Of a stretch of 64,000 nucleotides of DNA, positions 28,308 to 55,705 are shown piece after piece (positions within the stretch are counted from its first letter, which is position 1; the number at the start of each line of letters is the position of its first letter). This DNA comes from Ignavibacteriota bacterium (GTDB lineage: Bacteria; Bacteroidota; Ignavibacteria; UBA10030). The position numbers and the translations under genes are program-made. The notes below the pieces were generated by a model that did no database searches, was not told where the DNA came from, and saw only the letters and a list, made by a program, of their open reading frames with translations. The stretch is from positions 2,368,001 through 2,432,000 of the forward strand of contig OY969585.1 in assembly GCA_963701295.1 (NCBI GenBank). The letters are read 5' to 3'.

Positions 28308-28324
28308 AACAATTGCCACCGAAC

Positions 28325-29733
28325 CACTTTAAAAAGGAATAAGTCAAGAGAAAAGAGTACTCCCGAGGCATCAAGTGATCTATGATGCCGTGTTTGTTCT
28401 TTGAATTAGTTGTCACCGATACACGCCCGCCACAAGATACCGCACGGCGGGCAAGCCGCAGTGCCGATAGATTTATCGAGCGGACAGCCATACCGAAGCA
28501 ATGACGTCCAAACCATTTTTCGGATTAACCTCCAATTCATCAAAATACCGATGGTGGAAGCATGTCTCGTCCAAGCGAGAGGTTCCAGATATTTTCACGG
28601 CGCAACGCCTGACTTCCCAATCCAGCGGACGATGCTCTTACGGCATCAGTGAGGAAAGCGGGCTTGTCAGGCGCGGCCATTGCTGAGATTTCTGTCGGTT
28701 GATCGGCTGCCCTTTGAGACCATTATATGATGTTTTGTTCTTTAAGACATAGTAAACAATCTTTGCAAGCTCCTTCGCAAGAACAGCATAGGCGGTTGGC
28801 TCGTTAGATCGACGAGCTAATTTCTGAAAGAGACGTTTGTATTCAGGATAATACTGAACAGCATGGACAGCGGCATCAGAGAAGGCGATTTTGAGATACT
28901 TATTGCCGTCTTTGCTGGAACGGTGGTGCACGGAACGATTGGGGTTATCAGCCGCAGGGACAAGTCGGCAGTACGAGACAAATCTCTTATCAGAGTCGAA
29001 GCGTTCGATACCGTCGATCTCAAGATACACCGTGAAGGCTGAGAGCTTGCCGATCCCTGGGATGTGCAGGAGACGTTGAATATCGTCATTGGGGATCAGG
29101 ATCGGATGGAGAGATTTTTCCAGAGCGAGGATCTGAGAGGTGAACATATCGCGAGTATGTTCCAGCACAGCAGTCTGGAAGCGATAGGGATCATGGACAG
29201 AGCCGTTAAATTTGGCGTGAATGCTGTAGAGACGCAGCAGACAGGCAGAGCGTTGCTGAACGAGCCGTAAGCGAATGCGCATGGTATCTCGTAAGCCGCG
29301 AAGATCGCGGCTGATTTTATGAGCTTGGGGAATGAGTCCCTGCCGTAAGAGGATAGCGAGAGTTTGCGAATCAACTTTATCGGTCTTAACTTTAGCATAG
29401 CTGATGGCTTTGAGATATTTTGCGTGAGCAAGGACGAGATCGATGCCGTGGTCTTCGAGTAAATCGTTGAGCCAGTACCACCCGGTGGTAGACTCGACGA
29501 CAGCCTGATGGGAACCAGGCAAGGAATGGAAGTAATCGAGAACCACCTCGTTGCTATTCTCGACGCGTTGTTGTTTGATGACAGCACCGGTGTCATCGAC
29601 AGTGGTGATATAACTATTATCAGAGTGCAAATCGATACCTGAGTAATACATGGGAATCTCCTATTGTTGATGATGAATGTTTAATTCTTCAAGCTAAACA
29701 TACAAAATCGGGAGGTTCCTTTTTGGTAATATC
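28325..29733 (-). mobile_element. IS110/IS1111-family attC-targeting element, copy 1
   Basis: Subterminal IRs AAAAAGGAA/TTCCTTTTT; ~310-nt non-coding region downstream of tnp. Confidence 0.92.
28638..29651 (-). CDS. IS110-family recombinase (putative catalytic Ser to Pro)
   Basis: GIDLH, VVEST, KTDKVD, IPGIG. Confidence 0.95.
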   Translation of the reverse strand: MYYSGIDLHSDNSYITTVDDTGAVIKQQRVENSNEVVLDYFHSLPGSHQAVVESTTGWYWLNDLLEDHGIDLVLAHAKYLKAISYAKVKTDKVDSQTLAILLRQGLIPQAHKISRDLRGLRDTMRIRLRLVQQRSACLLRLYSIHAKFNGSVHDPYRFQTAVLEHTRDMFTSQILALEKSLHPILIPNDDIQRLLHIPGIGKLSAFTVYLEIDGIERFDSDKRFVSYCRLVPAADNPNRSVHHRSSKDGNKYLKIAFSDAAVHAVQYYPEYKRLFQKLARRSNEPTAYAVLAKELAKIVYYVLKNKTSYNGLKGQPINRQKSQQWPRLTSPLSSLMP

Positions 29734-29972
29734 TAACAACTCAAGCTGACGAAATGAGCGCCCGCCCAAAGATAAAGCTTGGCGGGTAAATGGGTACGTT
29801 AAGCATGGCTGGTGGTAGGTTATCGTTATTATTATTAAGTTCTTTGTACCTTATATATTTTTGTGTAATTAATTTTGTTATCAGCATGAACTTGTTTCGT
29901 GTTCAATATATTGAAAGTTTTCAACGCCACCGCTTAGTGCCGATCCGTTAGGCGGTCTCAAAGCTGGCATCA

Positions 29973-36400: not shown

Positions 36401-36847
36401 GATATTTTTGCCTTGGCTGGGGAAAATTCAGCTTATGATGTAACAATTCCTGTTACTCTTGCGGATGGAATACTCAATATCGCGTTCATCTCTGTTAAGG
36501 ATAATGCAAAACTCAGCGCACTCGTCGTACGCAAAGCTTCGCCGACGGGCGTTAAGAATCGTATAGAACAATCGCAAAAGTGCTTTGCATACTCATTATT
36601 TCAAAATCATCCCAACCCGTTTAACCCGTCGACATCGATCTCATTTACTCTTCCATCGCGTTCTTTTGTAACATTGAAAATATTTGATCTGTTAGGAAGA
36701 GAGGTTTCAACAATTGTCTCGGAGGAATTACCTGCAGGAGACCACTCACGGCAATGGAATGCAGAAGATTTTCCAAGCGGCGTTTACTTCTATCGCTTGC
36801 AAGCTGGTTCATTCATTGAAACAAAAAAACTTGTTTTGCTCAAGTGA
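33479..36847 (+). CDS. GH116-like hydrolase with FN3, malectin and T9SS CTD
   Basis: GTPLGGLGTG, GQIHHD, WVDLN; FN3; LYQTERYG/LKFAEIY malectin; CTD. Confidence 0.82.
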   Translation: MKFKPFLILLFLVDSFPIIHVHAAVDGTTGTPLGGLGTGAVKFNAGYGTFTFNDQTPTRYGDYQLLAGAQFQLYTKSAGSIITSYPLKATQMSGRIDDNAVFPTHQVNFGILNGTGINLNAFGPFDPIVSDNMAFPGAFYDFTFTNTGDSESEISIAFQMTTEQNPIIISGKGFSDETGLHQKCVFVYDEQGSAVVSVGSDSAFFQTGNCENSISGKTNRAAAFFKLPVGGVKTVTFIFAWYNNSDKTRYYYTNFYGKATEVANAGLIHLPVYKQAAFSFVNRMRASNLPSWIIDQTLNSLVNIVNNSIYTADGRYCHNEGMYQMDGTMDQMWHSRQINVQLIPEIAWKELEYWARCQKKAVASEGQIHHDFGSNATYTIASWDESEYQDYRDIDAWVDLNCGFIISVYETYIATADSIKLAYLWPYVKNAGQRILNQVVLEGDKTYPYTFSTSSSSYDNGGESQAFNSGLSIVTYKVLHSLAEEMGETVLASTYTAACDTAIKYFSQRWLDQPFITGKACESILGGPWIANFLKLDQDWASSKLNILFSTITNFYSPLGSGLGYAGGSYEEWQTYLVGHLGGYALQTGRVDIWRALQYDMYERNTLDRNRVFNEPLGIPSKVMSPVYIASNSSSADQYISIPVLWRNYYDLIGFHRNKATGELWLEPNLPAELNHNLLNACIISPEGYATISTSESGDSWQNQRITFTSDKSIQVNAIYAKDKYSDTIRSVRVNGADKQYIRVGTGYQRQLKIIWSGSIDSSGIILEVVGDPIMLKTPAAPDQLRATSVSPSRIDLVWRNNAVDATGYRIECKIGGVFTTIGTVGAHDTTFSHTTLLQNTQYFYHVVAYNNDGNSGFSNVASAITKSAGTGDVVIAINSGGPLYLGKEGTQYITDVNASFCAGGTAYSTTATVSGTPDGSLYQTERYGIFSYALSMQNGYYEVTLKFAEIYQTGAGLRLFNVTIEDSTVISNMDIFALAGENSAYDVTIPVTLADGILNIAFISVKDNAKLSALVVRKASPTGVKNRIEQSQKCFAYSLFQNHPNPFNPSTSISFTLPSRSFVTLKIFDLLGREVSTIVSEELPAGDHSRQWNAEDFPSGVYFYRLQAGSFIETKKLVLLK

Positions 36848-36857
36848 AACAATTGCA

Positions 36858-37070
36858 ACATAACCAGCAACTAAAGCTGACGGAATGAGCCCGCCAAAAA
36901 GACGGCGGGCAAGCGTGGTACGTTAAGCATGGCTTTTGGTGGGTTTCAGTTTCATTATTACGTTTTTTGTACTTCATGACTTTTGTGTAATTAATTTTGT
37001 ATTCAGTATGAACTCGTTTTCAAAAATTTGAAAATTATCAGCGCCGCAGCTTAGTGCCAATCCGTTAGAA
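36858..37070 (+). repeat. attC (213 bp, REP-like insert)
   Basis: ACATAAC...GTTAGAA. Confidence 0.9.
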
Positions 37071-37191
37071 CGCACGAATTATATATGGCGTAATTACTCT
37101 AGATTATATGCCGCGCAGCTTGATGATTGGTTTCGCAAAAGAAGTCTGTGGCTTGAACCAATTGAGGAGAACTATACATACTGGAGGCACA

Positions 37192-39216
37192 ATGTCACGA
37201 TTTAATTTATTATTTATGTTTCTGTTTTGTGCGTTTCAACTTAGTCAATCGCAACTGAGGTATGTGACTGCGGCAAATACGAGTACTATAACTAGCTACG
37301 GTTACGAATACCAAATGACGATTCAAAACAAGAGCAATGTTCTGATTGCTTTCAAAAGAGGTACAGGAGCAACTTCAGCAGACAGAGAAATTCGAGTTGC
37401 ATACTCTGCAGATGCCGGTCGTTCTTTTACTGAATCCAATATAACCATTCCTACTAATACTGGTACCTTTAGTCCAGTTATATCTAGCACCACAAGTTCC
37501 GTTGTCGCCATCTATCAGTATGATTCAAGTGTGACAAGAAATGTGTGTTTAGCGCGATCAACAAATGGGGGCAGTTCATTCACCTTGTCTTCTGTAGCCA
37601 ACTCAAATCTAAGTAATGCATGGTTAGAGACATTCATTTCTGATGGTGTTTCGAAATACTATGTTGGTGATAATTTTTACTTGTTCGCTTCGACTGACGA
37701 TGGCGTCTCATTCAAACAAATGAAAACCCCTTCAGATATGTCGTCCGGATCTGTATCTTATGCTCGTTGGGTAGCAACTCCTAATTATTTGTGGGTTGTG
37801 TATAATAAAGAAGCTGGAGATTCAATTTATGTTTATCGATCTAGCGACAACGGTAATACCTATCAATTCATAACCCAATACTTCGTAGATTTTCCATCCA
37901 ATTATCTTTTTTCCTGTTATGCAGTGGGTGATCAATTGTATATTTCTTGGGTTCACGAGGAAGTCGGAACATACTCGCTCAGAATGAGGACCATCACTGG
38001 AACTACAGTTGGCCCAATAAGAGATGTTCTTGTAACAACATCTAGCATCGACAAACCAATTTTGAAGAAAACTTCTGGTCGGGTTTTTATAGGAGTCTCT
38101 GATCAAATATTTCAATCAACAGACTCGGGTAATACTTGGAGTAGGGGTTCTGATGTGACCACGGAGATAAAAAATATAAAAAGCTCTCCAAACCTAAACG
38201 ACTTCATTCCATTGGATGACACGACCATATATTTGCACCTCAATAGTGATTTAACAGGATCATTGACACAGATTCTTTTTGCCAATTGGAAATGGACTGA
38301 TTTTCCAATAACTGATCTGACTGATGATACATTGATTACATTAAGTTCATCCGTCGACATTGGTTGGTGGAATCGTTACGTTGAAACGCCCATATACCGT
38401 TTGCAGATGTCAAATTCTCCGAGTTTTTCTCAGGTCATCTTTGATACTCTTGGAACATACTACTCATACATTCCTATGAAGAAAAGATTCCAAGCAAACG
38501 AAACAAGGTATTACTACCGAGTTCGTGGAGAGGATAATGGATACAATACTTCCTGGTCCCCGACGAAATCTTTCCGCTACGGTTCATCCATCACAGGTTC
38601 ACCTTCTCTCACCGCACCCATAAATGGCAGTACAGTAACCTATCCCAATATTGTCAATTTCCAATGGGGATCTGTAACCAATGCCGATAATTATGTCTTC
38701 CATATGTCGTCCACAACCACTTTTACAGATACACTCAATTATTTTGACTGGTTATCTGAAACTAAGACATCAGCTTTCCCTTGGAAGGGCGGTCTCCCGA
38801 TTTTGAATGGTACTTTCTATTGGCGTGTCAGAGGATTGGAGTATGAAACTGGAAGTACTGGCCCTTGGAGCGTCACGTGGAGCTTCAACTATACCGGGGC
38901 AACAGGGGTGTCTGAGGAACAAGTTGTAATTCCAAAAGACTATTCATTATCTCAGAATTTTCCTAATCCATTCAATCCATCCACAAGGATCACTTTTACA
39001 CTTCCGTTTCGTTCAAGAGTTACAGTCTACATATACAACATACTGGGTCAAGTAGTATCACGACTTTTGGATACCGATCTGGAAAAGGGATTCAAGTCTA
39101 TTGATTGGGAAGCTACGGTTTCCAGCGGAACGTACATCCTTCGCCTTGAGGCTATTTCTCTTCAAAATCCGAATGTCCATTTCGAGAGCACAAGGAAAAT
39201 GATTTTAATGCGATAA
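37192..39216 (+). CDS. Asp-box/BNR repeat protein with Ig/FN3-like domains and T9SS CTD
   Basis: Five SxD/NxGxxF/W repeats; QNFPNPFNPST. Confidence 0.8.
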   Translation: MSRFNLLFMFLFCAFQLSQSQLRYVTAANTSTITSYGYEYQMTIQNKSNVLIAFKRGTGATSADREIRVAYSADAGRSFTESNITIPTNTGTFSPVISSTTSSVVAIYQYDSSVTRNVCLARSTNGGSSFTLSSVANSNLSNAWLETFISDGVSKYYVGDNFYLFASTDDGVSFKQMKTPSDMSSGSVSYARWVATPNYLWVVYNKEAGDSIYVYRSSDNGNTYQFITQYFVDFPSNYLFSCYAVGDQLYISWVHEEVGTYSLRMRTITGTTVGPIRDVLVTTSSIDKPILKKTSGRVFIGVSDQIFQSTDSGNTWSRGSDVTTEIKNIKSSPNLNDFIPLDDTTIYLHLNSDLTGSLTQILFANWKWTDFPITDLTDDTLITLSSSVDIGWWNRYVETPIYRLQMSNSPSFSQVIFDTLGTYYSYIPMKKRFQANETRYYYRVRGEDNGYNTSWSPTKSFRYGSSITGSPSLTAPINGSTVTYPNIVNFQWGSVTNADNYVFHMSSTTTFTDTLNYFDWLSETKTSAFPWKGGLPILNGTFYWRVRGLEYETGSTGPWSVTWSFNYTGATGVSEEQVVIPKDYSLSQNFPNPFNPSTRITFTLPFRSRVTVYIYNILGQVVSRLLDTDLEKGFKSIDWEATVSSGTYILRLEAISLQNPNVHFESTRKMILMR

Positions 39217-40506: not shown

Positions 40507-40632
40507 CATGCAGTTAAAATGAGGCATGCATCAGAGAATAAAATATTATATGGTTATTTTGCTTTTAATTGGATCCAACTAATTCTTTTGCACATGTATT
40601 GAATATAAATATTCTACAGCGTGCGTTCTAAC

Positions 40633-42024
40633 CATTTTAAAAAGGAAAGAGTCAAGTAAATAGTAATCTCCCGATGCGTCCCGCAGCAGCGGGATGCGGA
40701 GTTCTTTGAGAGTGATGACGACCGAACACGGCCGGCAGACAGCGATGAGAGAAGCCGCATTATCTATCGAGCAGAACGCCACGACCAGGCAATGACGTCC
40801 AAACCATTTTTCGGATTAACCTCCAATTCATCAAAATACCGATGGTGGAAGCATGTCTCGTCCAAGCGAGAGGTTCCAGATATTTTCACGGCGCAACGCC
40901 TGACTTCCCAATCCAGCGGACGATGCTCTTACGGCATCAGTGAGGAAAGCGGGCTTGTCAGGCGCGGCCATTGCTGAGATTTCTGTCGGTTGATCGGCTG
41001 CCCTTTGAGACCATTATATGATGTTTTGTTCTTTAAGACATAGTAAACAATCTTTGCAAGCTCCTTCGCAAGAACAGCATAGGCGGTTGGCTCGTTAGAT
41101 CGACGAGCTAATTTCTGAAAGAGACGTTTGTATTCAGGATAATACTGAACAGCATGGACAGCGGCATCAGAGAAGGCGATTTTGAGATACTTATTGCCGT
41201 CTTTGCTGGAACGGTGGTGCACGGAACGATTGGGGTTATCAGCCGCAGGGACAAGTCGGCAGTACGAGACAAATCTCTTATCAGAGTCGAAGCGTTCGAT
41301 ACCGTCGATCTCAAGATACACCGTGAAGGCTGAGAGCTTGCCGATCCCTGGGATGTGCAGGAGACGTTGAATATCGTCATTGGGGATCAGGATCGGATGG
41401 AGAGATTTTTCCAGAGCGAGGATCTGAGAGGTGAACATATCGCGAGTATGTTCCAGCACAGCAGTCTGGAAGCGATAGGGATCATGGACAGAGCCGTTAA
41501 ATTTGGCGTGAATGCTGTAGAGACGCAGCAGACAGGCAGAGCGTTGCTGAACGAGCCGTAAGCGAATGCGCATGGTATCTCGTAAGCCGCGAAGATCGCG
41601 GCTGATTTTATGAGCTTGGGGAATGAGTCCCTGCCGTAAGAGGATAGCGAGAGTTTGCGAATCAACTTTATCGGTCTTAACTTTAGCATAGCTGATGGCT
41701 TTGAGATATTTTGCGTGAGCAAGGACGAGATCGATGCCGTGGTCTTCGAGTAAATCGTTGAGCCAGTACCACCCGGTGGTAGACTCGACGACAGCCTGAT
41801 GGGAACCAGGCAAGGAATGGAAGTAATCGAGAACCACCTCGTTGCTATTCTCGACGCGTTGTTGTTTGATGACAGCACCGGTGTCATCGACAGTGGTGAT
41901 ATAACTATTATCAGAGTGCAAATCGATACCTGAGTAATACATGGGAATCTCCTATTGTTGATGATGAATGTTTAATTCTTCAAGCTAAACATACAAAATC
42001 GGGAGGTTCCTTTTTGGTAATATC
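40633..42024 (-). mobile_element. IS110/IS1111 attC-targeting element, copy 2
   Basis: Same ends and insertion point as copy 1. Confidence 0.92.
40929..41942 (-). CDS. IS110-family recombinase (identical protein to copy 1)
   Basis: Same 337-aa sequence. Confidence 0.95.
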   Translation of the reverse strand: MYYSGIDLHSDNSYITTVDDTGAVIKQQRVENSNEVVLDYFHSLPGSHQAVVESTTGWYWLNDLLEDHGIDLVLAHAKYLKAISYAKVKTDKVDSQTLAILLRQGLIPQAHKISRDLRGLRDTMRIRLRLVQQRSACLLRLYSIHAKFNGSVHDPYRFQTAVLEHTRDMFTSQILALEKSLHPILIPNDDIQRLLHIPGIGKLSAFTVYLEIDGIERFDSDKRFVSYCRLVPAADNPNRSVHHRSSKDGNKYLKIAFSDAAVHAVQYYPEYKRLFQKLARRSNEPTAYAVLAKELAKIVYYVLKNKTSYNGLKGQPINRQKSQQWPRLTSPLSSLMP

Positions 42025-42283
42025 TAACAACTCAAGCTGACGAAATGAGCGCCCGCCCAAAGATAAAGCTTGGCGGGTAAATGGGTACGTTAAGCATGGC
42101 TAATAGAGGTTTAGATGTTTAATAATAAACTTATCAGAATGAACTATAGAAGAGGAAACACGCTGCGCGTGTTACAGTTATGGGGCTCCGCCTGTTATCA
42201 GTAACTTGCGGCTTCTCGTTGACGCAGCTTAGTTGCCAATCGTTAGGGCACAATTACTCATTCATTAGTTAGCTGGAAGATTT

Positions 42284-44890
42284 ATGAAAAACCTTTTATG
42301 CTTTTTTATTCTCCTCGTTTTTGCATCTTTGCTGTGTTATGCCAATCCAGGCAGAGGCAGAGTTAAAATAGCTCACGGTACAATAGTTACCGACAAAGGC
42401 ACTTTACTGCGCGGCTGCGTTGTTGGAACTGATATCGTCGGATATACCCGTGAACAATTCAATTCAATTAAAGAATACGGATTAAATACGTGTCATTTAG
42501 GTGTATGGAACGTGTCTGATGTAGGCACAGAATTAGCAGCTTCTATTGATAGTATAGTAAAATGGACTGAAGAAGACTCACTTTACCTGATTATTACACC
42601 GACATCTGGAGCAGCATGGAATCCATTATTTGGCCTGGTTGATAGTACGAATTATAAATGTACATTGGATTTTTGGAAATTTTACGCCCCGAGGTATAAA
42701 GACAAAACACATGTTATATACGAACTCGTAAATGAACCTTGTCAGTATCTCCATAGTTCAGACACGTTGCCAAGATTTTACAGTGATGGCTATAAGATTA
42801 TGCGTGATTCGGCCCCGGATACACATATTATTTTGCCAATTATTTGGTCAGCTGATTGGGATCCTTGGCATATGAAGGCTTGGGCAAATATTGAAAGTGA
42901 TATTAAAAGGTTAACGGATAGAGGGGTAGATATGTCGAATGTATCCATTTCATTTCATACCTATGGTTTCAGCGGTATAGCCCTGGATAGCATTTTGCTT
43001 TGTTTTAGAGCTTTAGGCCATTCTTTTATTTGTACAGAAATGCCGGCGTTTTTTAATATCTATTTACAAGATGCACATCTTAATTTCAAGGATGTTAAGA
43101 TTTATGAGAAAGACTCTGTGTCGTATGTTTATATACTTTCATTAAGCGATTTGTCACAAAATGAAAAATACAAAGATGTTTTAGAAGATTATGGCATTTC
43201 CTGGGCCCCTGATTTTGGAAAATGGCCTTACACGATAAAATCGGATACCAGGACATGGAATGCCAGTCAGCCTATTGGCGCTGAATGGTTCGATATAGGA
43301 GCGGATTCCAGTATAGCTGGTATATATTCCCAATTATATTATGTTGAAATTTGTCTGCCGAATCTTCCATGGATAATGTTTAAAAAAGTTGATTTCAATA
43401 AAGCAATCGGCTGTAATATCAGGATTGCAAGCACTGATGCCACCAATGATGATAATATCGAATTGCACCTTGATTCACTCACGGGGAAGAAAATTGGTGA
43501 ACTTACCAATTTTTATACAGGTGGGGATGATATCTGGCAAACATTTAGTTTCAAGATTGATACAACGGATGGGATACATGCTATCTATTTCGTAGTCCAT
43601 GGAGAAGCAAAAATCGAATGGTTTTATTTTAGCCAGGAAAGTGGAACCAGTCAAATACTGCAAATACCAAAATGCAGTACCCCGCCGGTTATTGATGGCG
43701 TGCTCGATGATATCTGGAATTATACTTATGCAGTCCCGTTATTAAATTATCAGGCAGGTCTTGATACACCGAAGTCATATATCGATCACTTCAGCACTTT
43801 ACGTACCATGTGGGACGATAATTATTTTTATGCATTTGTCCATGTCATGGACGATATAATTTGCGCAGGAAATCCAGCTCCGTGGAAAAATGATGCCATT
43901 GAACTATACTTTGATGGGGGAAATGATAAAACTCCCTTTAATGGGGTTCCCGATTATGATGCTAATGATAGACAATGGATATGGGTTTATGGCATACAGG
44001 ACACCAGTTCACTTCCTGTCAGCAGTTTTTGGAGGGGCCCCGGCAATTGGGTGTGGAAAAAAACTGCTGTGGGTTACGACTTTGAATTAAAAATCCCTAA
44101 AGATTCGCTTACTTTTCCATTGGTTGCGGGCCATGCAATTGGGTTTGAAATAGCAAATGATGATTGTGATAATAATATACAAGGACGTACCAATACTAAC
44201 CAGTGGTGGTCATCAAGCCCAGATGCCTGGAAGGATGCATCGGTATTTGGGACAGCATTGTTGAAGGATGGCAAATTAATTTACAGTTCGCCTCCTGCAC
44301 CTGTTCTTCTTGCTTGTGCACACAATGCAAAAGATCAACCGACAACGTTGACATTAAGCTGGAAACCATCTGCCCGCGCTTCAACCTACCAATTGCAGGT
44401 TGCAACAAGTTCTAATTTCGGGAGCGGACTGGTAGCTAACGATTCAACAATTATTGATCCCGTGAAGAAAGTTGGTTCACTTTCTCTTAATGTAACGTAT
44501 TACTGGAGAGTGCGTGCTGCAAATGCTTCAGGAAAAAGCGGTTGGTCGGAAATTTGGCAATTCACAACTTCAAAAAATACTGGAGTATCTGAGGAAGTGA
44601 ATATTCCATTAATTTACTCTCTAAGTCAAAACTACCCTAACCCGTTCAATCCATCGACGACAATAAAATATTCTCTTCCCGATCGAAGCCAAGTAAGACT
44701 TCAAATATTCAACATTCTTGGACAGATGGTAAAGGAACTTGTTAATAATGAACAAACAGCAGGATATAAATATGTTGTCTGGAATGCAAACGTATCGTCG
44801 GGATTGTATATCTATCGACTTGAGGCAACATCGAAAGACAATCCTTCGAAACGATTTATCAATACGAAGAAAATGATTTTGATAAAATGA
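42284..44890 (+). CDS. GH5-like hydrolase with CBM6, CBM9-like, FN3 and T9SS CTD (cassette)
   Basis: IYELVNEP, SFHTY, CTE; PVIDGVLDDIW; CTD; complementary cassette ends. Confidence 0.85.
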   Translation: MKNLLCFFILLVFASLLCYANPGRGRVKIAHGTIVTDKGTLLRGCVVGTDIVGYTREQFNSIKEYGLNTCHLGVWNVSDVGTELAASIDSIVKWTEEDSLYLIITPTSGAAWNPLFGLVDSTNYKCTLDFWKFYAPRYKDKTHVIYELVNEPCQYLHSSDTLPRFYSDGYKIMRDSAPDTHIILPIIWSADWDPWHMKAWANIESDIKRLTDRGVDMSNVSISFHTYGFSGIALDSILLCFRALGHSFICTEMPAFFNIYLQDAHLNFKDVKIYEKDSVSYVYILSLSDLSQNEKYKDVLEDYGISWAPDFGKWPYTIKSDTRTWNASQPIGAEWFDIGADSSIAGIYSQLYYVEICLPNLPWIMFKKVDFNKAIGCNIRIASTDATNDDNIELHLDSLTGKKIGELTNFYTGGDDIWQTFSFKIDTTDGIHAIYFVVHGEAKIEWFYFSQESGTSQILQIPKCSTPPVIDGVLDDIWNYTYAVPLLNYQAGLDTPKSYIDHFSTLRTMWDDNYFYAFVHVMDDIICAGNPAPWKNDAIELYFDGGNDKTPFNGVPDYDANDRQWIWVYGIQDTSSLPVSSFWRGPGNWVWKKTAVGYDFELKIPKDSLTFPLVAGHAIGFEIANDDCDNNIQGRTNTNQWWSSSPDAWKDASVFGTALLKDGKLIYSSPPAPVLLACAHNAKDQPTTLTLSWKPSARASTYQLQVATSSNFGSGLVANDSTIIDPVKKVGSLSLNVTYYWRVRAANASGKSGWSEIWQFTTSKNTGVSEEVNIPLIYSLSQNYPNPFNPSTTIKYSLPDRSQVRLQIFNILGQMVKELVNNEQTAGYKYVVWNANVSSGLYIYRLEATSKDNPSKRFINTKKMILIK

Positions 44891-45049
44891 GATAATTATG
44901 TCCTAACCAGTTTAAAAAGGAAAGAGTCAAGTAAATAATATACTCCCGATGCGTTCCGCGCAATCGGAATGCAGAGTTCTTTAACATTAAGGACGACCGA
45001 ATCCGTGCCGATGCCGCGTTCTCTATCGAATAGACAGGCGATTACCAGA

Positions 45050-45216
45050 GCAATGCCGTCCAAACCAGTTTACGGATTTACATTCACTCATTGAAGAAAC
45101 GATGGTGAAAGCGTATCTCGTCGAGCGAGATGTTCCAGATATTACCACGGCACAGCGCACTCTCTTCCCAATCCAGCGAACGATCCCGACGCAGTCGGGA
45201 TCAGTTAGGAAAGCGG
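45050..45216 (-). ncRNA. Predicted bridge/seek RNA of IS110 copy 3
   Basis: Four guide-like segments match the target and donor junctions. Confidence 0.65.
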
Positions 45217-46206
45217 GCTTGAGAGGCGCGGCCACTGCTGAGATTTATGCCGGCTGATCGGCTGACCTTTGAGACCTTTATATATTGTTTTGTTTTTTAA
45301 GACATAGTAAACAATCTTCGCAAGTTCTTTGGCAACGACGGTTCGCGCAGTCGCCTCATTGGAGCGACGAGCTAATTTCTGGAATAAGCGTTTGTATTCC
45401 GGATAGTACTGAATAGCATGAACAGCGGCATCGGAGAAGGCGATTTTGAGATACTTATTGCCGTCTTTGCTGGAGCGATGGTGCACAGAGCGATTGGAGT
45501 TATCGGCAGCAGGGACGAGTCGGCAGTAAGAGACAAACTTTTTATCGGAGTCGAATCGTTCAATGCCGTCGATTTCAAGATACACCGTGAATGCGGTGAG
45601 CTTGCCGATACCTGGAATGTGCAAGAGCCGTTGAATATCGTCGTTGGGAATCAGCACAGGATGGAGAGATTTTTCCAGCGAGAGGATCTGAGCAGTAAAA
45701 GTGTCTCTGGTATGTTGCAAGACAGCAAGTTGAAAACGATACGGATCCGGAACAGAGCCGTTAAATTTGGTCTGAATACTGTAGAGACGCAGAAGACTGG
45801 CAGTTCGTTGCTGAACGAGCCGTAGACGAATACGCATGGTATCGCGCAGGCCGCGTAGTTCTCGGCTGATTTTGTGAGCCCGTGGAATGAGTCCCTGTCG
45901 TAAGAGAAGAGCAAGAGTTTGCGAATCGACTTTATCTGTTTTAACTTTAGCATAACTGATGGCTTTGAGATATTTGGCGTGAGCAAGGACAAGCTCGATG
46001 CCGTGATCGCTGAGAAGATCGTTGAGCCAGTACCATCCTGTGGTAGACTCAACGACTGCGTGATGAGGACCGGGCAGAGAGTGGAAGTAATCAAGAACAC
46101 GTTCATTGTTATTCTCGACACGTTGTCGCTTGATGACAGCACCAGTGTCATCAACAGTGGTGATAAAACAATTATCAGAATGCAAATCGATACCTGAGTA
46201 ATACAT
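45205..46206 (-). CDS. IS110-family recombinase
   Basis: DEDD motifs; LVPAADNS keeps the Ser. Confidence 0.95.
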   Translation of the reverse strand: MYYSGIDLHSDNCFITTVDDTGAVIKRQRVENNNERVLDYFHSLPGPHHAVVESTTGWYWLNDLLSDHGIELVLAHAKYLKAISYAKVKTDKVDSQTLALLLRQGLIPRAHKISRELRGLRDTMRIRLRLVQQRTASLLRLYSIQTKFNGSVPDPYRFQLAVLQHTRDTFTAQILSLEKSLHPVLIPNDDIQRLLHIPGIGKLTAFTVYLEIDGIERFDSDKKFVSYCRLVPAADNSNRSVHHRSSKDGNKYLKIAFSDAAVHAIQYYPEYKRLFQKLARRSNEATARTVVAKELAKIVYYVLKNKTIYKGLKGQPISRHKSQQWPRLSSPLS

Positions 46207-46464
46207 GGGAATCTCCTTAGATTGTGGATGTTGGTGACCTAGAGAATTATCAATGTACATAATCGGGAGATTCCTTTTTGGTAATATCCAGCAACTCAAG
46301 CTGACGGAATGAGCGTAAGTAAGTACAAAATTGAAAGAACTAGCATGAACTTGTTTCGTTTAGTATATTTTGAAAGTTATCAGTGTCACAGCTTAACTGC
46401 CATCCGTTAGGCAGCGCAGCGTGCAGTAAGTGCTAATTGAAATAGCAAAAGGAATAAAACGCTT

Positions 46465-48358: not shown

Positions 48359-48364
48359 GAGCCG

Positions 48365-48523
48365 TCCTAACCAGGCGCTCAAGTTGACCGAATGAGCATG
48401 AGTGCATTAAGCATGGCGAGCATAGGTCTTGGTGTCTAATAATAAACTTTTCAGCATGAACTTGTTTCGTTTTGTGTATTTTGAAAGTTTTCAACATGGA
48501 AGCTTAGCCGCCATCCGTTAGGC
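48365..48523 (+). repeat. attC site
   Basis: TCCTAAC...GTTAGGC. Confidence 0.9.
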
Positions 48524-48551
48524 GCATTTTAAAATTATAGGAGAATGCTTA

Positions 48552-48978: not shown

Positions 48979-49136
48979 TCTCATGAATAGCAGGTGTGGC
49001 GTCATCATATTTATGAATTTTCCCAATTGCTGTTTAAGTGATGCCAGAAGTTATCGGCTCATTTTTTCAACATGGAAATAGTTGTTTCTTTATAAATTCA
49101 TATACATATACTTTCAATAATGAACATTTAAAAATC

Positions 49137-51776
49137 ATGAAAAATATAAACCTTGGAATTTTACTAATTCTTGTCGTGTCTCTTACATTTAATCTATGTA
49201 AAGGAAGTGAAAAACTGCTTCCTTACCAGGATACCAGTCTTTCTATTGAAGAACGGGTGAACGATTTGGTATCAAGGATGACACTGGATGAAAAGATCAG
49301 CCAAATGATGAATGCCTCTGATTCTATTAGCCGATTGGGTATTCCGGATTATAACTGGTGGAGCGAAGGTTTGCATGGAGTTGCTAATTCTGGCATAGCA
49401 ACGGTCTTTCCGCAGGCAATAGGATTAAGCGCTACATGGAACGAAGATTTAATAAACCAGGTAGCTGATGTTATTTCTACGGAATTCAGAGCCAAATTCA
49501 ATGATTATCAGAAAAAAGGAGATCATAGCATTTTTAAAGGTTTGACAGTCTGGTCTCCCAATATCAATATTTTCCGTGATCCAAGATGGGGCAGAGGACA
49601 AGAAACCTATGGCGAAGATCCTTTTCTTACTTCTCGCATTGGTGTAGCTTTTGTAAAAGGTTTGCAGGGTAATGATCCTAAGTATTTAAAAGTTGTTTCT
49701 ACTCCAAAGCATTATGCAGTGCACAGCGGTCCTGAACCTGAACGTCATCACTTTGATGCTGTAACTGACTATCGCGACTTTGCTGAAACGTATACTCCTG
49801 CTTTCAAGGCTTGCGTCGTAGAGGGCGGTGCATATTCAATTATGGGCGCATACCAGAGATATCTTGGCACACCCTGTTGTGCGAGCGATTTGCTTTTGAA
49901 AGATGTATTGCGTGGAAAATGGAATTTCAAAGGTTACATGGTATCAGATTGCGGTGCAATTTCTGATATTTATTTAAATCATAAATTTGTAAAGACTCCG
50001 GAAGAAGCTGCTGCTTTGGCTGTTTTAGCCGGTTGCGATCTCGAGTGTGGTGATACATACAAATTTCTTAAAAATGCTGTTCAGAAAGGTTTACTTAAAG
50101 AGTCAGACATAGATGTTGCTGTGAAACGCTTATTTACAGCTCGTTTCAAATTAGGTTTGTTCGATCCTCCTGAAATGGTAAAATATGCGCAGATACCAAT
50201 CTCAGATAACGATTCACCGGAACATCGCGCATTGGCTTTAAAAACAGCTCGTGAATCAATAGTATTATTGAAAAATGAAAATAACTTTCTTCCGTTAAAA
50301 AAAGATATCAAAACGATTGCTGTTATCGGGCCTAATGCAAATATCCCGGAAGTTCTATACGGTAATTACAATGGTGTATCGTCAAAACCTATTGCACCAC
50401 TCGAAGGATTAAAAAATAATGCTCCAAAATCTACAAAGATTTTATACGAAGCCGGCTCTAATGCTGCTGATGATTCTCCTATTCTTTCAGCTATCCCTGA
50501 AGATGCTTTATCCACTGGCAACAAGAATGAGAAAGGATTAAAAGCTGAGTATTTTGATAATATGGAATTAAAAGGCACTCCTTTCATTACACGGATTGAT
50601 AAAAAGATTGACTTTGATTTTATCGATAATCCTCCTGCCCGTGGTAAAAGTATGAAATTCTCTGTGCGATGGACTGGCACTCTTTCAGTACCTGTAACAG
50701 ATACCTACTTCATCGGTTTTACCGGAGATGACGGTTATCGTGTCTATATTGACAATAAACTTCTTTTTGAAAGCTGGAAGGATCAAAGTCCTGCATTGAA
50801 AAAAGTTAAAATAGATCTTGTCAAAGAAAAAAAATATGAGATCAAAATTGAGTATTACCAAAACTTGGGTGGAGCTATTGCAAAATTTCAATGGGGGAAA
50901 GCTGATAAAGATTTTTTAAAAAGGGTTATCGATGTGACAAAACAAGCTGATGTTGTTGTTTATGTCGGCGGTATTACTCCATGGCTCGAAGGAGAAGAAA
51001 TGTCGGTTGAAATTGAAGGATTCAAAGGTGGTGACCGTACATCACTTGATTTACCTGCTGTTCAGGATAGAATACTTAAAGCAATCAAAGCTACAGGAAA
51101 ACCCATCGTTCTGATATTATTGAATGGTAGTGCCCTATCGGTAAATTGGGCAAACGAAAATGTAAATGCCATTCTCGAAGCCTGGTATCCGGGTGAAGAA
51201 GGCGGTAATGCAATTGCAGATGTTTTGTTTGGTGATTATAACCCTGCCGGACGTTTGCCTGTGACTTTCTATAAATCTGTTAAAGATTTACCGCCATTCG
51301 AAGATTATAATATGAAAGGTCGAACATATCGCTATTTCAACGGTATCCCTCTGTATGAGTTTGGTTATGGATTAAGCTATACAACTTTCAAATATTCTAA
51401 TATCAACGCACCTAAATCAGTTAAAACAAATGAAGATGTAAAAGTATCAGTTGAAGTTGAGAATACAGGAAAGATTGATGGCGACGAAGTTGTTGAATTG
51501 TATGTTAAAATACGGCACGCTAAAGCGCCTGTTCCTATCCATGCGCTTAAAGATTTCAAACGCATCCATATGAAGGTCGGTGAAAAGAAAACAGTTGAAT
51601 TTATTCTCAAACCTGATCAATTGTCATTGATAGATGATGATAACAAACGAGTAATAGAACCAGGCAAATTTCAAATATTTATCGGTGGTCGTCAACCCAA
51701 TCCTGATGTTCTGGCTTCAGGCGAAGTTCTCAAAGTAGATCTTGAAGTGACTGGAAATGTGAATGTGATAGAATAG
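49137..51776 (+). CDS. GH3 beta-xylosidase/glucosidase with PA14 and FN3-like domains
   Basis: RDPRWGRGQETYGEDP, KHY, VSDCGA, WYPGEEGG. Confidence 0.95.
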   Translation: MKNINLGILLILVVSLTFNLCKGSEKLLPYQDTSLSIEERVNDLVSRMTLDEKISQMMNASDSISRLGIPDYNWWSEGLHGVANSGIATVFPQAIGLSATWNEDLINQVADVISTEFRAKFNDYQKKGDHSIFKGLTVWSPNINIFRDPRWGRGQETYGEDPFLTSRIGVAFVKGLQGNDPKYLKVVSTPKHYAVHSGPEPERHHFDAVTDYRDFAETYTPAFKACVVEGGAYSIMGAYQRYLGTPCCASDLLLKDVLRGKWNFKGYMVSDCGAISDIYLNHKFVKTPEEAAALAVLAGCDLECGDTYKFLKNAVQKGLLKESDIDVAVKRLFTARFKLGLFDPPEMVKYAQIPISDNDSPEHRALALKTARESIVLLKNENNFLPLKKDIKTIAVIGPNANIPEVLYGNYNGVSSKPIAPLEGLKNNAPKSTKILYEAGSNAADDSPILSAIPEDALSTGNKNEKGLKAEYFDNMELKGTPFITRIDKKIDFDFIDNPPARGKSMKFSVRWTGTLSVPVTDTYFIGFTGDDGYRVYIDNKLLFESWKDQSPALKKVKIDLVKEKKYEIKIEYYQNLGGAIAKFQWGKADKDFLKRVIDVTKQADVVVYVGGITPWLEGEEMSVEIEGFKGGDRTSLDLPAVQDRILKAIKATGKPIVLILLNGSALSVNWANENVNAILEAWYPGEEGGNAIADVLFGDYNPAGRLPVTFYKSVKDLPPFEDYNMKGRTYRYFNGIPLYEFGYGLSYTTFKYSNINAPKSVKTNEDVKVSVEVENTGKIDGDEVVELYVKIRHAKAPVPIHALKDFKRIHMKVGEKKTVEFILKPDQLSLIDDDNKRVIEPGKFQIFIGGRQPNPDVLASGEVLKVDLEVTGNVNVIE

Positions 51777-51848
51777 GATTCCTTGTTTTGCCCATAAAAT
51801 AGAAAATCCTCACGGATTTTCATCGATGAGGATTCTCCTTTAGTGTGT

Positions 51849-51887
51849 GTAGCGGGGCAGGACTTGAACCTACAACCTTCGGGTTAT
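51849..51887 (-). other. tRNA-fMet 3'-half remnant (att-like)
   Basis: Reverse complement ATAACCCGAAGGTTGTAGGTTCAAGTCCTGCCCCGCTAC. Confidence 0.7.
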
Positions 51888-52048
51888 ATCATTCTAGGGG
51901 AAAATAGGATGGGAGGGGCTTCTAACCAGAATCATAGATATTTCACTTTCACAAAAATTTCAGCAATTAGAATTGAGAATGTATAAAATTTCATAATTCT
52001 TTTTGATCACGAAGAGAAAAAATGAGACTATAATCCATTTTTTTGTAC

Positions 52049-52077
52049 TTGACAAATTATAAATGAATTATTATACT
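52049..52077 (+). promoter_or_regulatory. Near-consensus promoter facing attR
   Basis: TTGACA-N17-TATACT. Confidence 0.65.
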
Positions 52078-52184
52078 CGTCCACAATTCATCTGCTAACA
52101 GTGTGCTAACACTTTGCTAATGATATGGTAGTAAAAGTGGTAAATTCTTTTCGAATTCGATAGAATTTATGCACAGGGTCGGTT

Positions 52185-52227
52185 TGAAAATCCATATGTC
52201 GGGGACTCAATTCCCTCCCTGTCCACT
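52185..52227 (+). repeat. attR: degenerate tRNA-Phe 3' half
   Basis: Matches 1336-1378 with 3 mismatches. Confidence 0.88.
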
Positions 52228-52280
52228 GAAAAATCTTCTACCTTTATCCGCAATCCTGTCTGCAATTATTTTTGGAATGC

Positions 52281-52402
52281 TAAGACTACGGTGTTCGTTA
52301 GGGTTTATAAGCAGCGGGATGGATTTCCTATCCCTTCTTCAGCTTGCAATACCTCATGAGATTACTCTCTTATTTATTGGCACATAATCTGGGGGCAGGT
52401 CA
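52281..52402 (+). mobile_element. IS3 3'-end remnant
   Basis: ATTGGCACATAATCTGGGGGCAGGTCA end. Confidence 0.6.
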
Positions 52403-52765
52403 CTTCCAGACATTAAACCATTGAAGATGCATTGTCGCAAGTGCTACTTAGAGGTGGAGGTAACAAACCAAGATCTTACAATGTTTTACATAACTCCATC
52501 CTCATATATACGGTGATTACCGTAGATGATACGTATTTTGCCGTAATTTTATAAATAAGGTTTTCCCTTGATCCCTAATGACTTTTTATTCTGTATACTA
52601 ATTCAGTGAATTCAATGATAACATCTTCAAGGGGAAAATTATGGAAAGAAAATAATATTTCTTTTTCATTAGTAATTTTATTGATACAGTTTGATCAACT
52701 AAGCGTAAATATTTACACAATAAAACAGGTTGTGACTCATTTTCATTAACTCTATTAGGGTTTTT

Positions 52766-55402
52766 ATGAAAACCAATAAAAAGAATTCAACAACTGTCTT
52801 AAGCAGATGGACGCGCTTGTCCCGAATGATTCGGGGATTTCTTGAAGTCCCGTTACATGCGGGACTGATATTTGCTTTTATAGCGCCAGTCATTGCTAAA
52901 TCTCAAACTTACTATACAATCAACGAAAATTCATCACCCGTATTTTCTACACTTATCCCAGATGAAGCCTATGTCATAAAGGATAATGTAAATTACAAAC
53001 TCTATTATGCTGGGAATGACTTTACATCAATTAATCTCGCTCAATCACCTGACGGCATAACGTGGACTCCATATAATAGCGGAAATCCTATAATATCAGA
53101 TGCACAATATCATTCAGACGTAAAATACTATAGTACAGGATTCCCAGGAGCAAATAGCGGTACAAATCCAAGCTCATTGACGATGAACTATCGTATATGG
53201 TATCAAGGGTTAAACCAGAATAGCGTAGAAGGATGGAGATATGCTGAATCGCCGGATGGAATAAACTGGTATAATCACATACCCGTTTCCCAATTCGGAG
53301 CACCAGTATATAGTTCCGCCACAGGAGTAACCTATGGAATAGCTGATGTAATCTATACATCGGGAGCATCCAACACAGGAACAGACTGGACATTCAGAAT
53401 ATATGCAAACGTCCAATGGGAACCTGGTCAATACGGTGGAAAGGAACTCGTAGTCATAGCTTTTTCAACAAATGGATATGACTGGACTGGCTATGATCCA
53501 ACATTGGCAGGTTATGCAACACCAGTATTTGCAGGAACTCTAGACACAAGTCGGTTTGACTGCGACCACATAGGATGGTTCAAGGTCATAAAAAACAGTC
53601 CGATAGACTGGCAAGCGTTCTACTCCGGCGGGAAAGGGTCGACGTACCAGGCGTTGAATGGAATAGGCTACGCAACATCGACCGATGGCATAAACTGGAC
53701 ACACAGGCAAACACTCATCACAACAAATGACCCAGTGGCATGGAGAAAACAGAGCGTATGGATGCCATCAGTGGTAAAGTCTGGAAACAACTACGAGCTA
53801 TTTTTCCTCGGATCAGCAGATGTAAGTGACGGAAGTTGGATATGGTGGAAACTCGGAAGAGCTATCTTGACACCCGTTGCTGACCCTTTTGCAGGAATCA
53901 ATTTTGCAGAATATCCCAGCAATCCTTTATTTGGCGGAGATACAGAAGGAGTGGATCGCGCTTATCAAGCATATGTAATAAAAATAGGTGCAGTGTACAA
54001 TATGTGGTACGGGGATCATATTAATGCTAGATATGTCAGTAGTGCATATCCTGATTTCCATGACGTAACATTTCCTGGAACTAAAATCACTGTGCCAAAT
54101 GCAACTCAGCCTTACAAGTTCACAGTATATTATAATTCTGCTGGATGGACTCTTGGAGGAACCAGTTATTCTCAAAAATTAGTCGCCTATTACACTGATA
54201 ATGCAGACAACTTTTCTACAAATCCACAAGTCGCAGTCTCTGATGATGGAATAAATTGGACATATGTAGGGCGGACGAGCGGTGTGATTACCGGCCCACC
54301 TGCTGAGGTTTCAACCGTTTATAGATTATCTGTATTATATGAAGGAAATAATATTTGGAAAGGATATGGCGATCAAGGACAGGCATGGATCCAATATTAT
54401 ACTTCAACCGACGGGATGGCTTGGACAGTACAAGCATGGGACATATTAAATGATCGTAATCCTAGTCTATTACAGCCTTGGGAAATCGGTCCTGGGCCAC
54501 AATATCCTGGAGAAATAAGTCCTTATGTTTTCAAAGTGAATAATACTTATGTGATGACTTATAGCTCTGGCAAAACAAACAACAATCAAGGAATAGGCAT
54601 TGCATATTCTATTGATGGAATAAATTTTACCAAGTCAAGTACAAATCCAATATTTAGTATAGACGATGGCATCGCATGGAAAACTGTTAGAAATTACAAC
54701 GGCTACATAATGCTTGATGCCGGATTGTGGAGAATGTATTTTCAAGGAACAAATGCTGCTGGATTTTATGCTATTGGTATGGCAACTCCAGATGTACCTT
54801 TACCGGTGGAACAGGTATCGTTTACAGCCACAGTGGTAAGCAATGCTGCAACGCTGACATGGCAGACTGCCACGGAAGTCAATAACTATGGCTTTGATGT
54901 TGAACGTCGGTTGGTCAATAGTCAATCGTCAACACTCAATAGTTGGGGAAAGATCGGATTTGTAAAAGGAAGTGGAACGAGTAACATTGCGCATTCATAC
55001 AGCTATACAGATGTGAGTGTTTCGTCGGGAACGTATGCCTATAGGTTAAAGCAAATCGATAACAATGGGACGTATAAGTATTCGAGCGAAGCGGAAGTAA
55101 CGGTTTCGGTGCCGAAAGTATTTGCGCTGAATCAGAACTATCCTAACCCGTTCAACCCGTCGACGACAATCGAATATCAGTTACCAGGAACAGGGACACG
55201 ATTTAATGTGTCCTTAAAAGTGTATGATGTCATTGGGAGGGAGGTTTCAAATCTTGTGAATGAACAGCAGGAACCGGGATATTACCAAAAGACATTTGCT
55301 GCAAGTCGATATGCCAGCGGAATGTATATTTATCGCCTTGTTGCAACAGACGAGCAGAATAAACAGCATATATATCAGAAGAAAATGGTGCTCTTGCGCT
55401 AA
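52766..55402 (+). CDS. Tandem five-bladed propeller (GH32/43/130-like) protein with T9SS CTD
   Basis: SPDGITW/STDGINW repeats, NPIF; PLPVE linker and CTD. Confidence 0.78.
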   Translation: MKTNKKNSTTVLSRWTRLSRMIRGFLEVPLHAGLIFAFIAPVIAKSQTYYTINENSSPVFSTLIPDEAYVIKDNVNYKLYYAGNDFTSINLAQSPDGITWTPYNSGNPIISDAQYHSDVKYYSTGFPGANSGTNPSSLTMNYRIWYQGLNQNSVEGWRYAESPDGINWYNHIPVSQFGAPVYSSATGVTYGIADVIYTSGASNTGTDWTFRIYANVQWEPGQYGGKELVVIAFSTNGYDWTGYDPTLAGYATPVFAGTLDTSRFDCDHIGWFKVIKNSPIDWQAFYSGGKGSTYQALNGIGYATSTDGINWTHRQTLITTNDPVAWRKQSVWMPSVVKSGNNYELFFLGSADVSDGSWIWWKLGRAILTPVADPFAGINFAEYPSNPLFGGDTEGVDRAYQAYVIKIGAVYNMWYGDHINARYVSSAYPDFHDVTFPGTKITVPNATQPYKFTVYYNSAGWTLGGTSYSQKLVAYYTDNADNFSTNPQVAVSDDGINWTYVGRTSGVITGPPAEVSTVYRLSVLYEGNNIWKGYGDQGQAWIQYYTSTDGMAWTVQAWDILNDRNPSLLQPWEIGPGPQYPGEISPYVFKVNNTYVMTYSSGKTNNNQGIGIAYSIDGINFTKSSTNPIFSIDDGIAWKTVRNYNGYIMLDAGLWRMYFQGTNAAGFYAIGMATPDVPLPVEQVSFTATVVSNAATLTWQTATEVNNYGFDVERRLVNSQSSTLNSWGKIGFVKGSGTSNIAHSYSYTDVSVSSGTYAYRLKQIDNNGTYKYSSEAEVTVSVPKVFALNQNYPNPFNPSTTIEYQLPGTGTRFNVSLKVYDVIGREVSNLVNEQQEPGYYQKTFAASRYASGMYIYRLVATDEQNKQHIYQKKMVLLR

Positions 55403-55471
55403 TCACGATTGATATGATTTCTTCTCTGCTGTTCAGACTGCGATTGAAAGTGCAGTGGATAATTTATGGAT

Positions 55472-55600: not shown

Positions 55601-55705
55601 TTGTTATTAAAAAACAAATATCGTAGATTTTGAGTAAATATATTGGCTTTGACGAATTCGGAGAGGGGTCGCTCAATGTGTTTGTCCTTTTTGTTCCCAT
55701 AGTTT

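What the first reader, a model, noticed from the sequence alone, without database searches (positions are those of the whole stretch)
44901..46292. Readable bridge/seek RNA in an attC-targeting IS110: all four guides match the real junctions
Seen in sequence (minus strand, copy 3): UUCCUAACU (45203-45211), a GAUCCCGAC/GUCGGGAUC hairpin, then CGCUGG (45173-45178). These match the target TCCTAA|CC|AGC on opposite strands. Next come UGGUAAUAUC (45138-45147), identical to the IS end at 46279-46288, and UAAACUGGUU (45063-45072), the complement of the other junction at 44905-44914 (10/10 each). In copy 2 guide and junction change together: AACCATTTT at 40802 and at 40630. Established: IS110/IS1111 recombinases use bispecific RNAs (IS621 bridge RNA, seekRNA), and an IS1111-attC subgroup exists. 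Inference: this is a divergent system with a CC/CT core, programmed for this lineage's attC, whose left target guide overlaps the recombinase stop codon. TTGACT in one end and GATATT in the other could form a circle-junction promoter.
Basis: partly seen in the sequence, partly recalled or inferred. Interest (0 to 1): 0.9.

Follow-up and report, generated by a model that had tools for sequence, protein, structure and literature searches.

The report
attC-homing transposon, guide inside its gene
A bacterial jumping gene sits in nine identical copies at the same base of integron cassette junctions; it carries a predicted guide RNA whose four guide segments change in step with the landing sites and ends of its relatives, and whose first guide contains the stop codon of its own enzyme gene, so it is likely a separate lineage of a known RNA-guided mechanism.

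Summary
Confirmed. The element (44907-46289) is an intact IS110-family recombinase gene (333 aa, minus strand) followed by a bridge-type RNA with two similar loops. Nine identical copies in the genome all sit at TAA[CC] of integron attC sites. Across 160 loci all four guides track their junctions better than shuffles (p 1e-4 each). The right donor guide matches its end in 95 of 106 loci, over six perfectly matched sequence states. Handshake dinucleotides and a fixed junction promoter are present.

Corrections: the left donor guide tracks only about 6 nt plus core; the core is C+(C/A), rarely CT; copies 1 and 2 also carry guide mismatches.

It is not a member of the published IS1111-attC clade (about 23% identity to ISUnCu1, tree test p 8e-6, landing about 7 bp away). 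Its nearest named relatives are ISGsu4/ISShfr7-like.

The unusual feature is dual coding: the stop codon is the TAA of the left target guide in 99 of 116 loci, and codons 325-331 are also the RNA's main stem. RNA expression and circles were not shown. The scan noted attC-aimed bridge RNAs and guide-gene overlap before on other DNA.

The parts
44900..44906 (+). Left target arm (attC R'' box region, ends in TAA), host-derived
44907..44908 (+). Core CC at the element's right end
   Evidence: same in 9 of 9 copies
44909..44913 (+). Right donor arm (5 nt), read by the right donor guide
44914..44922 (-). Subterminal inverted repeat, right end (9 bp, 5 nt from the core)
44925..44930 (-). -35 hexamer TTGACT of the predicted circle-junction promoter
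   Evidence: TTGACT at this spacing in 78 of 83 distinct right ends
45063..45072 (-). Right donor guide + core pair GG + handshake UU (45063-45064)
45058..45152 (-). Donor-binding loop: CC/GG outer pair, left donor guide, variable inner stems, right donor guide
45137..45147 (-). Left donor guide (about 6 nt plus core track the end)
45155..45229 (-). Target-binding loop: main stem 45221-45229 with 45155-45164, CCC/GGG helix, guides, inner hairpin 45182-45202
45171..45180 (-). Right target guide + core pair GG + handshake AU (45171-45172)
45203..45211 (-). Left target guide; its TAA (45205-45207) is the recombinase stop codon
45205..46206 (-). IS110-family DEDD recombinase, 333 aa; D7, E53, D91, D94, S237; C-terminal extension from about residue 311; codons 325-333 overlap the RNA
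46271..46279 (+). Subterminal inverted repeat, left end (8 nt from the core)
46280..46289 (+). Left donor arm (46280-46287) and core CC (46288-46289); 46283-46288 read on the minus strand is the -10-like GATATT
46290..46412 (+). Rest of the interrupted attC site (right target arm, L boxes, R' box at 46406-46412)
40632..42025 (-). Copy 2: variant element (89% aa identity, 337 aa), stop-removing change in the left target guide, CT at the left-end junction
28324..29734 (-). Copy 1: same as copy 2 up to just past the right donor guide, then a different right end (chimera)

Best explanation
This is an intact IS110-family insertion sequence that has spread into the R'' end of integron attC sites, likely by bridge-RNA-guided recombination. 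It would excise as a circle; joining its ends would create a promoter (TTGACT, 17 nt, GATATT) that would drive one transcript holding the recombinase gene and then the RNA. The RNA is predicted to fold into two like loops, one reading the attC site on both strands and one reading the joined ends. By analogy with IS621, the top (cassette) strands would be cut just after the 2-base core and exchanged, with the AU and UU handshake bases favouring insertion. The element ends up antisense to the cassettes and splits R'' from the rest of attC. Shown here: anatomy, insertion sites, guide-junction covariation, RNA stem covariation, dual constraint on the last codons. Inferred: expression, circle, chemistry. 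The gene-RNA overlap likely arose when the protein gained a useful tail that ran into the RNA and stopped at the TAA that attC targeting keeps in the guide.
For: Nine identical copies, 9 of 9 at TAA[CC] in attC, at most 8 independent. Guides versus junctions on distinct pairs, 10,000-20,000 permutations: right donor 91 of 98 vs 73.3; right target 364 of 544 vs 305.8; left target 454 of 648 vs 416.5; left donor 393 of 572 vs 371.7; p 1e-4 each. Right donor guide equals the end in 95 of 106 loci, one mismatch in 11; the guide state changes at least 15 times on an 81-protein quick tree. A lineage with TG in both core-reading positions has the CA core at both junctions in 13 of 13 loci. Structure: 98.3% of cells paired over 75 sequences, 11 of 20 pairs with two-sided changes, 0 of 500 shuffles as high, slid controls 27-45%. 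In this genome 8 of 9 insertions are at CC-AGC sites, as the right target guide predicts, against 33 of 88 free CC-AGC or CC-AGG attC sites (p 0.006). The second core base travels with the left arm: in 4 of 15 groups of near-identical elements the right-end core varies while the left-end core stays fixed, and never the reverse, as the IS621 top-strand cut predicts (PMC11208158, passages). Catalytic DEDD and serine intact; fold matches IS621 (Foldseek E 7e-16, TM 0.73). An integron integrase (TIGR02249, 453 bits) flanks one of the arrays.
Against: No circle junction was seen in 8 public runs (contigs only) or in 0 of 146 left-end flanks. RNA expression was not shown. Target guides are loose (7-10 of 12 at real sites), unlike the low mismatch tolerance reported for IS621 (PMC11208160, passages). 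Copies 1 and 2 mismatch at three or four guides. Permutation tests ignore kinship, and guide and right end are only about 150 nt apart, so block swaps (L035, L007 vs L008) inflate the count of changes. My parser required a G in the core, T[TC] after it and a GATATT-like left end, so the invariant core, handshake and TAA matches are consistent but not independent tests. At left-donor position -3 guide and end change together without being complementary.
Confidence: 0.88

Rival explanations
1. seekRNA-only model: a short RNA holding just the target loop does the work, the ends are read by protein through the subterminal repeats, and the donor-like matches are bystanders.
For: For IS1111 elements an 82-nt RNA with only target matches supported movement (PMC11187229, parts 1-3 of 9 read). 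The left donor guide is nearly invariant here and its 5' part does not track the end. Elements with one right-donor mismatch exist (11 of 106).
Against: Six different right-end states each have an exactly matching guide; the donor loop copies the target loop's layout with invariant closing pairs and a compensatory pair in 37 of 75 sequences; the core-reading bases switch in both loops together with the core.
Confidence: 0.08
2. Guide pairing alone does not pick attC: the attC hairpin (or exposed single strand) is a second, structural requirement.
For: All 9 copies are in attC although 72 free non-attC sites carry the minimal 9-base consensus against 88 free attC sites (p 0.007 if blind). A target stem-loop gate is reported for ISPpu10 (bioRxiv 10.64898/2026.03.19.712850, abstract only).
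Against: With the stricter CCTAA-CC-AG consensus the split is 60 attC to 18 others (p 0.12). Selection against insertions in genes would give the same picture. This adds to the best explanation rather than replacing it.
Confidence: 0.3
3. The matches are chance or relics of captured flank sequence, and a protein-only enzyme targets attC.
For: The 7-nt matches alone are reached by about 16% of shuffles; a captured R'' box could explain the left target guide.
Against: Joint match 0 of 5000; position-specific covariation in all four guides; compensatory RNA stems.
Confidence: 0.02

Closest known systems
IS1111-attC group: ISKpn4, ISPst6, ISPa25 (PMC11187229: parts 1-3 of 9, passages, supplement passages), ISUnCu1 (named in PMC10232235, passages; locus L168)
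   Same: DEDD recombinase, non-coding region downstream of the gene, subterminal repeats, insertion near the R'' end of attC, antisense to the cassettes, same order of the two target matches.
   Different: About 23% protein identity to ISUnCu1; grouping rejected (AU p 8e-6). Lands at TAA[CC], whereas ISUnCu1 and ISKpn4 (PMC13604230 Table 1 passage) land about 7 bp further in. In ISUnCu1 the target matches begin about 100 nt after the stop codon. ISKpn4 and ISPst6 proteins were not aligned here.
IS621 / ISCro4 bridge recombinases (PMC11208160, PMC11208158, PMC13626964: passages; PDB 8WT6-9, 9T56)
   Same: Fold (TM 0.73), DEDD plus serine, two loops with four guides, 2-base core, handshake dinucleotides set for the post-exchange state, junction promoter.
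   Different: 21-22% identity; RNA at the 3' end and overlapping the gene; element inserted in the opposite orientation relative to the guide-defined top strand; core C(C/A) rather than CT; long subterminal repeats; looser target match.
ISGsu4 / ISShfr7-like branch (L078, L083, L166; L079, L164, L165). ISShfr7 is listed as IS1111 in PMC11187229 supplement file 6
   Same: Nearest named relatives (30-33% identity), sister group with 99/99 support. By eye a similar target-loop scaffold follows the gene, and the Pseudoalteromonas element L079 sits in an attC-like site with a CCTAACT segment after its stop.
   Different: Their proteins end about 20-25 residues earlier and the RNA starts after the stop codon; most are not in attC. 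The ISGsu4 label comes from the plasmid record's annotation, not from the reference sequence.

Membership tests
IS110 family (broad) | DEDD RuvC domain plus Tnp domain with catalytic serine | tested here: met
   PF01548, PF02371; NF033542 169.8 bits over cut-off 140; D7 E53 D91 D94 S237
IS110 family (broad) | One specific target, one orientation, short core at both ends | tested here: met
   9 of 9 copies; 104 of 106 right flanks begin TTA (parser allowed T[TC][AGC])
IS110 family (broad) | Circular intermediate | tested here: inconclusive
   No joint in 8 contig-only runs; 0 of 146 flanks; conserved junction promoter is indirect support
Bridge-RNA systems | Target loop with two guides that covary with the target | tested here: met
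   (p 1e-4 each)
Bridge-RNA systems | Donor loop with two guides that covary with the ends | tested here: met
   Right donor strong; left donor weak, one clearly pairing variable position, tied to clade
Bridge-RNA systems | Handshake guides | tested here: inconclusive
   AU in 104 of 116 and UU in 100 of 106 match the opposite substrate, but the DNA side is invariant, so no covariation can be measured
Bridge-RNA systems | RNA expressed, bound by the recombinase, reprogrammable | not testable with these tools
   Only relatives' contigs in RNA libraries
IS1111 group | Long non-coding region downstream of the gene; top-strand complement before bottom-strand match | tested here: met
   About 290 nt downstream, about 80 nt upstream; order as in PMC11187229
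IS1111 group | Subterminal inverted repeats | tested here: met
   9 bp here; 7-14 bp in most of 100 loci; inside the 7-17 bp of PMC11208160, under the usual 11-13 bp of PMC11187229
IS1111 group | Terminal extensions of 7 (or 6) and 3 bp | tested here: not met
   8 and 5 nt beyond the core in 89 of 100 loci
IS1111 group | Transposase related over its length to the core IS1111 clade | tested here: not met
   24% to ISEc11, 22% to IS5075; long branch apart
IS1111-attC group | Insertion in attC, antisense | tested here: met
IS1111-attC group | Same position in attC | tested here: not met
   About 7 bp apart
IS1111-attC group | Common descent with the group | tested here: not met
   AU p 8.5e-6 against ISUnCu1 only (long-branch warning given); other members not aligned

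The most novel reading that the evidence does not exclude
The overlap is a built-in switch. A ribosome finishing the recombinase must unwind the RNA's main stem and stops on the guide's own TAA, so each transcript is either message or guide; recombinase binding to the folded loop on its own mRNA would shut off synthesis or load the new enzyme in cis. The guide would also write the protein's last two residues, so natural retargeting edits the enzyme's C-terminus.
Probability: 0.2. Interest if true: 0.75.

Novelty: new variant of a known kind. Interest (0 to 1): 0.45.

Why it matters
It is a second, separately derived RNA-guided invader of integron attC sites, common in Ignavibacteria-type genomes, with enough natural variants to read the guide rules without experiments: which positions are read, which tolerate mismatch, and which arm keeps the core. 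It gives natural evidence that an IS1111-layout element has a working donor loop, a point on which the bridge-RNA and seekRNA papers differ in emphasis. It adds a compact recombinase with a C(C/A) core and, in some relatives, a donor loop about 35-45 nt shorter. Anyone reprogramming it must supply the RNA in trans, because the left target guide holds the stop codon. Insertion likely freezes cassettes in place by separating R'' from the rest of attC.

Tried and rejected
Rfam: nothing credible (one hit at E 0.96). Promoter scan of the linear element did not list the split promoter, as expected. Public runs: 8 laid, contigs only, no joint between the two ends; RNA-library contigs are relatives at 80-95% identity and show neither level nor strand. 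The Tetu and Holmes 2008 paper is not held and Post and Hall 2009 was not read; what I know of them beyond their titles is recalled and not used. A spread search for annotated ISKpn4-type hits found none among 60 rows; ISUnCu1 was used instead. The left-target column was mis-indexed and redone. First parses missed some left or right ends; right-end counts come. Loci whose guides or ends did not parse were dropped (of 160: left end 149, right end 106, right donor guide 119). The careful tree did not finish; the quick tree is cited. Rejected: 'CC/CT core' as the clade rule; a 10-nt left donor guide; the longer TTG-start ORF (46299), which crosses the junction; and the idea that the second core base belongs to the right-hand arm. 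Literature searches for a bridge RNA overlapping the stop codon or coding sequence, and reading 'overlap' passages in PMC11208160, PMC13626964 and PMC13604230, found no such report; subscription papers, picture-only supplements and bioRxiv supplements were not visible and may bear on this.

Full report
Setting. The window lies in a 3.64-Mb single-contig genome. Relatives of the element come mostly from Ignavibacteriota and Bacteroidota records. The window is part of a long cassette array with many attC-like repeats; about 128 free sites of this type were counted genome-wide, and an integron integrase (TIGR02249, 453 bits) flanks another array that holds two copies of the element.

Observation. 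The four longest matches between the non-coding region and the junctions are jointly beyond chance (0 of 5000 shuffles), although the two 7-nt ones alone are not. The element runs core to core from 44907 to 46289. It has a 333-aa IS110-family gene on the minus strand, intact D7/E53/D91/D94/S237, and a model that matches IS621 (pLDDT 93; E 7e-16, TM 0.73). A 9-bp subterminal repeat lies 8 and 5 nt from the cores.

Copies. The genome has nine identical copies and two copies of an 89%-identical variant. All nine sit at TAA[CC] at the R'' end of an attC, antisense to the cassettes; two share both flanks, so at most eight insertions are independent. Real sites match 4-6 of 7 left and 3-4 of 5 right guide bases; the window copy is among the best. 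Eight of nine are CC-AGC sites, as the right target guide predicts, against 33 of 88 free CC-AGC or CC-AGG sites (p 0.006; 0.011 without the duplicate). Whether attC structure adds specificity is open (p 0.007 or 0.12 by choice of consensus).

Covariation. I parsed 160 loci (77 genome, 80 metagenome, 3 window); left ends parsed in 149, right ends in 106. On distinct guide/DNA pairs all four guides beat permutations at p 1e-4. The right donor guide equals the 5-nt end in 95 of 106 loci and differs by one base in 11; six states match exactly, and the guide state needs at least 15 changes on the quick tree, some of them block swaps rather than paired mutations. The right target guide covaries at its four core-proximal positions and at the second core base; the left at three distal positions, its TAA being invariant. 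The left donor guide tracks only about 6 nt plus core: positions -9 to -7 show no signal, and the one clearly pairing variable position follows clades. The core is CC or CA; guides reading TG go with CA at both junctions in 13 of 13 loci; CT occurs only in copies 1 and 2. Handshake AU (104 of 116) and UU (100 of 106) match the opposite substrate as in IS621 (PMC11208158, passages), but the DNA side does not vary and was partly built into my parser. Against: copy 2 mismatches at three guides and copy 1, a chimera, at all four.

Strand rule. Among 15 groups of near-identical elements, four vary in the right-end core with a fixed left-end core, and none the reverse. So the second core base stays with the left arm, which is what a top-strand cut just after the core gives (PMC11208158). 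This is inference from 4 groups.

RNA structure. A hand-set 20-pair model on 75 sequences is paired in 98.3% of cells, with two-sided changes in 11 pairs; shuffles and slid controls are far lower (the model came from these sequences, which favours it over the slid controls). The two loops have the same plan: closing C/G helix, left guide ending CU, inner stem, right guide ending GG, handshake pair, U, closing Gs. Single-sequence folding gives z -2.5. No Rfam family fits. TTGACT lies exactly 17 nt from the future GATATT in 78 of 83 distinct right ends, and 101 of 106 distinct left ends begin GATATT (the left-end parser favoured this).

Dual coding. In 99 of 116 loci with a full-length frame the stop codon is the TAA inside the left target guide. 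Among 38 close proteins, the ratio of amino-acid-changing to silent codon differences is 0.46 for residues 311-324 (0.42 in the RuvC domain), so the tail is under protein selection; silent differences drop from about 0.36 to 0.11 at residues 325-331, the 5' strand of the main stem; and the ratio is 9 at residues 332-333, which are spelled by the guide (pairwise counts, not dN/dS). Residues 311-320 are modelled with confidence (pLDDT 89), the last 13 are not. A subgroup keeps a Q-Y-P-R-like motif while its RNA has moved downstream into another frame, and ISGsu4/ISShfr7-like relatives stop before their RNA. The overlap therefore looks derived. It is not strict: copies 1 and 2, L136 and the shifted subgroup read through the guide. 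The plain reading is that attC targeting keeps TAA in the guide and the tail uses it. A regulatory role is possible and untested.

Comparison. It works like IS621-type bridge systems (PMC11208160, PMC11208158, PMC13626964; passages) and has the IS1111 layout and guide order (PMC11187229; parts 1-3 of 9, passages, supplement passages). It fails the 7/3-bp end rule and is only 22-24% identical to ISEc11 and IS5075. attC-targeting IS1111 elements with seekRNAs are published, but ISUnCu1 is 23% identical, does not group with this clade (AU p 8.5e-6, with a long-branch warning), and lands about 7 bp further in, as does ISKpn4. The nearest named branch is ISGsu4/ISShfr7-like (30-33%); one Pseudoalteromonas member sits in an attC-like site at the same position, so attC targeting may be older than this clade, and database records I could not see may already note it. 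Two searches found no paper on a bridge RNA overlapping its gene's stop codon. Earlier notes of this scan describe attC-aimed bridge RNAs and guide-gene overlap in other genomes; I did not check them and they are not support.

Not shown. No circle junction and no expression evidence came from eight contig-only runs.

Verdict. Real and well supported; a new variant of a known kind. Interest 0.45.

Noticed in passing
window 14025-14110, 16978-17120, 19519-19600; also G000:C1 near 162893, 1810043, 2271823, 3157483, 3160836, 3333610: Solo right-end remnants of related elements sit right after TAA[CC]; at 16978 the remnant runs straight into the right half of an attC, giving a hybrid site. They record earlier waves of insertion and decay.
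   Followed up: partly
window 28324-29811 and 40632-42102: Copies 1 and 2 are identical over the gene, the RNA, the left end and about 75 nt of the adjoining attC, but differ in the right end and the distal attC, which suggests recombination or gene conversion between elements.
   Followed up: partly
L035, L020, L007 vs L008: Natural module swaps: a donor loop and right end of one subgroup behind the recombinase and target loop of another, with guide and end still matching.
   Followed up: partly
L036, L047, L060, L077: Minimal donor loops: the inner multi-stem is reduced to one short hairpin, making the RNA about 155 nt.
   Followed up: no
L133, L135, L138, L141, L143, L144, L146, L149: Subgroup with 365-375-aa proteins that read through the target loop in another frame and have a changed left donor guide position that is not complementary to the end.
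   Followed up: partly
L079 (Pseudoalteromonas plasmid record), L164, L165: ISShfr7-like relatives appear to carry two tandem modules each ending in an ACT-[AG] guide-like segment after the stop codon; L079 interrupts an attC-like site and has an internal stop in its gene.
   Followed up: no
window 33479-39216, 42284-44890, 49038-60653: Unusually large genes inside the attC array (700-1100 aa); the one at 42284-44890 has glycoside hydrolase 5, CBM6, CBM9 and a secretion C-terminal sorting domain. The others were not scanned.
   Followed up: no
window 5369-5534, 22607-22768, 30501-30701, 48362-48524: attC sites of about 125-200 bp, modular in the middle, longer than typical.
   Followed up: no
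window 2130-3232: IS3-type transposase (rve domains) just before the start of the array.
   Followed up: no
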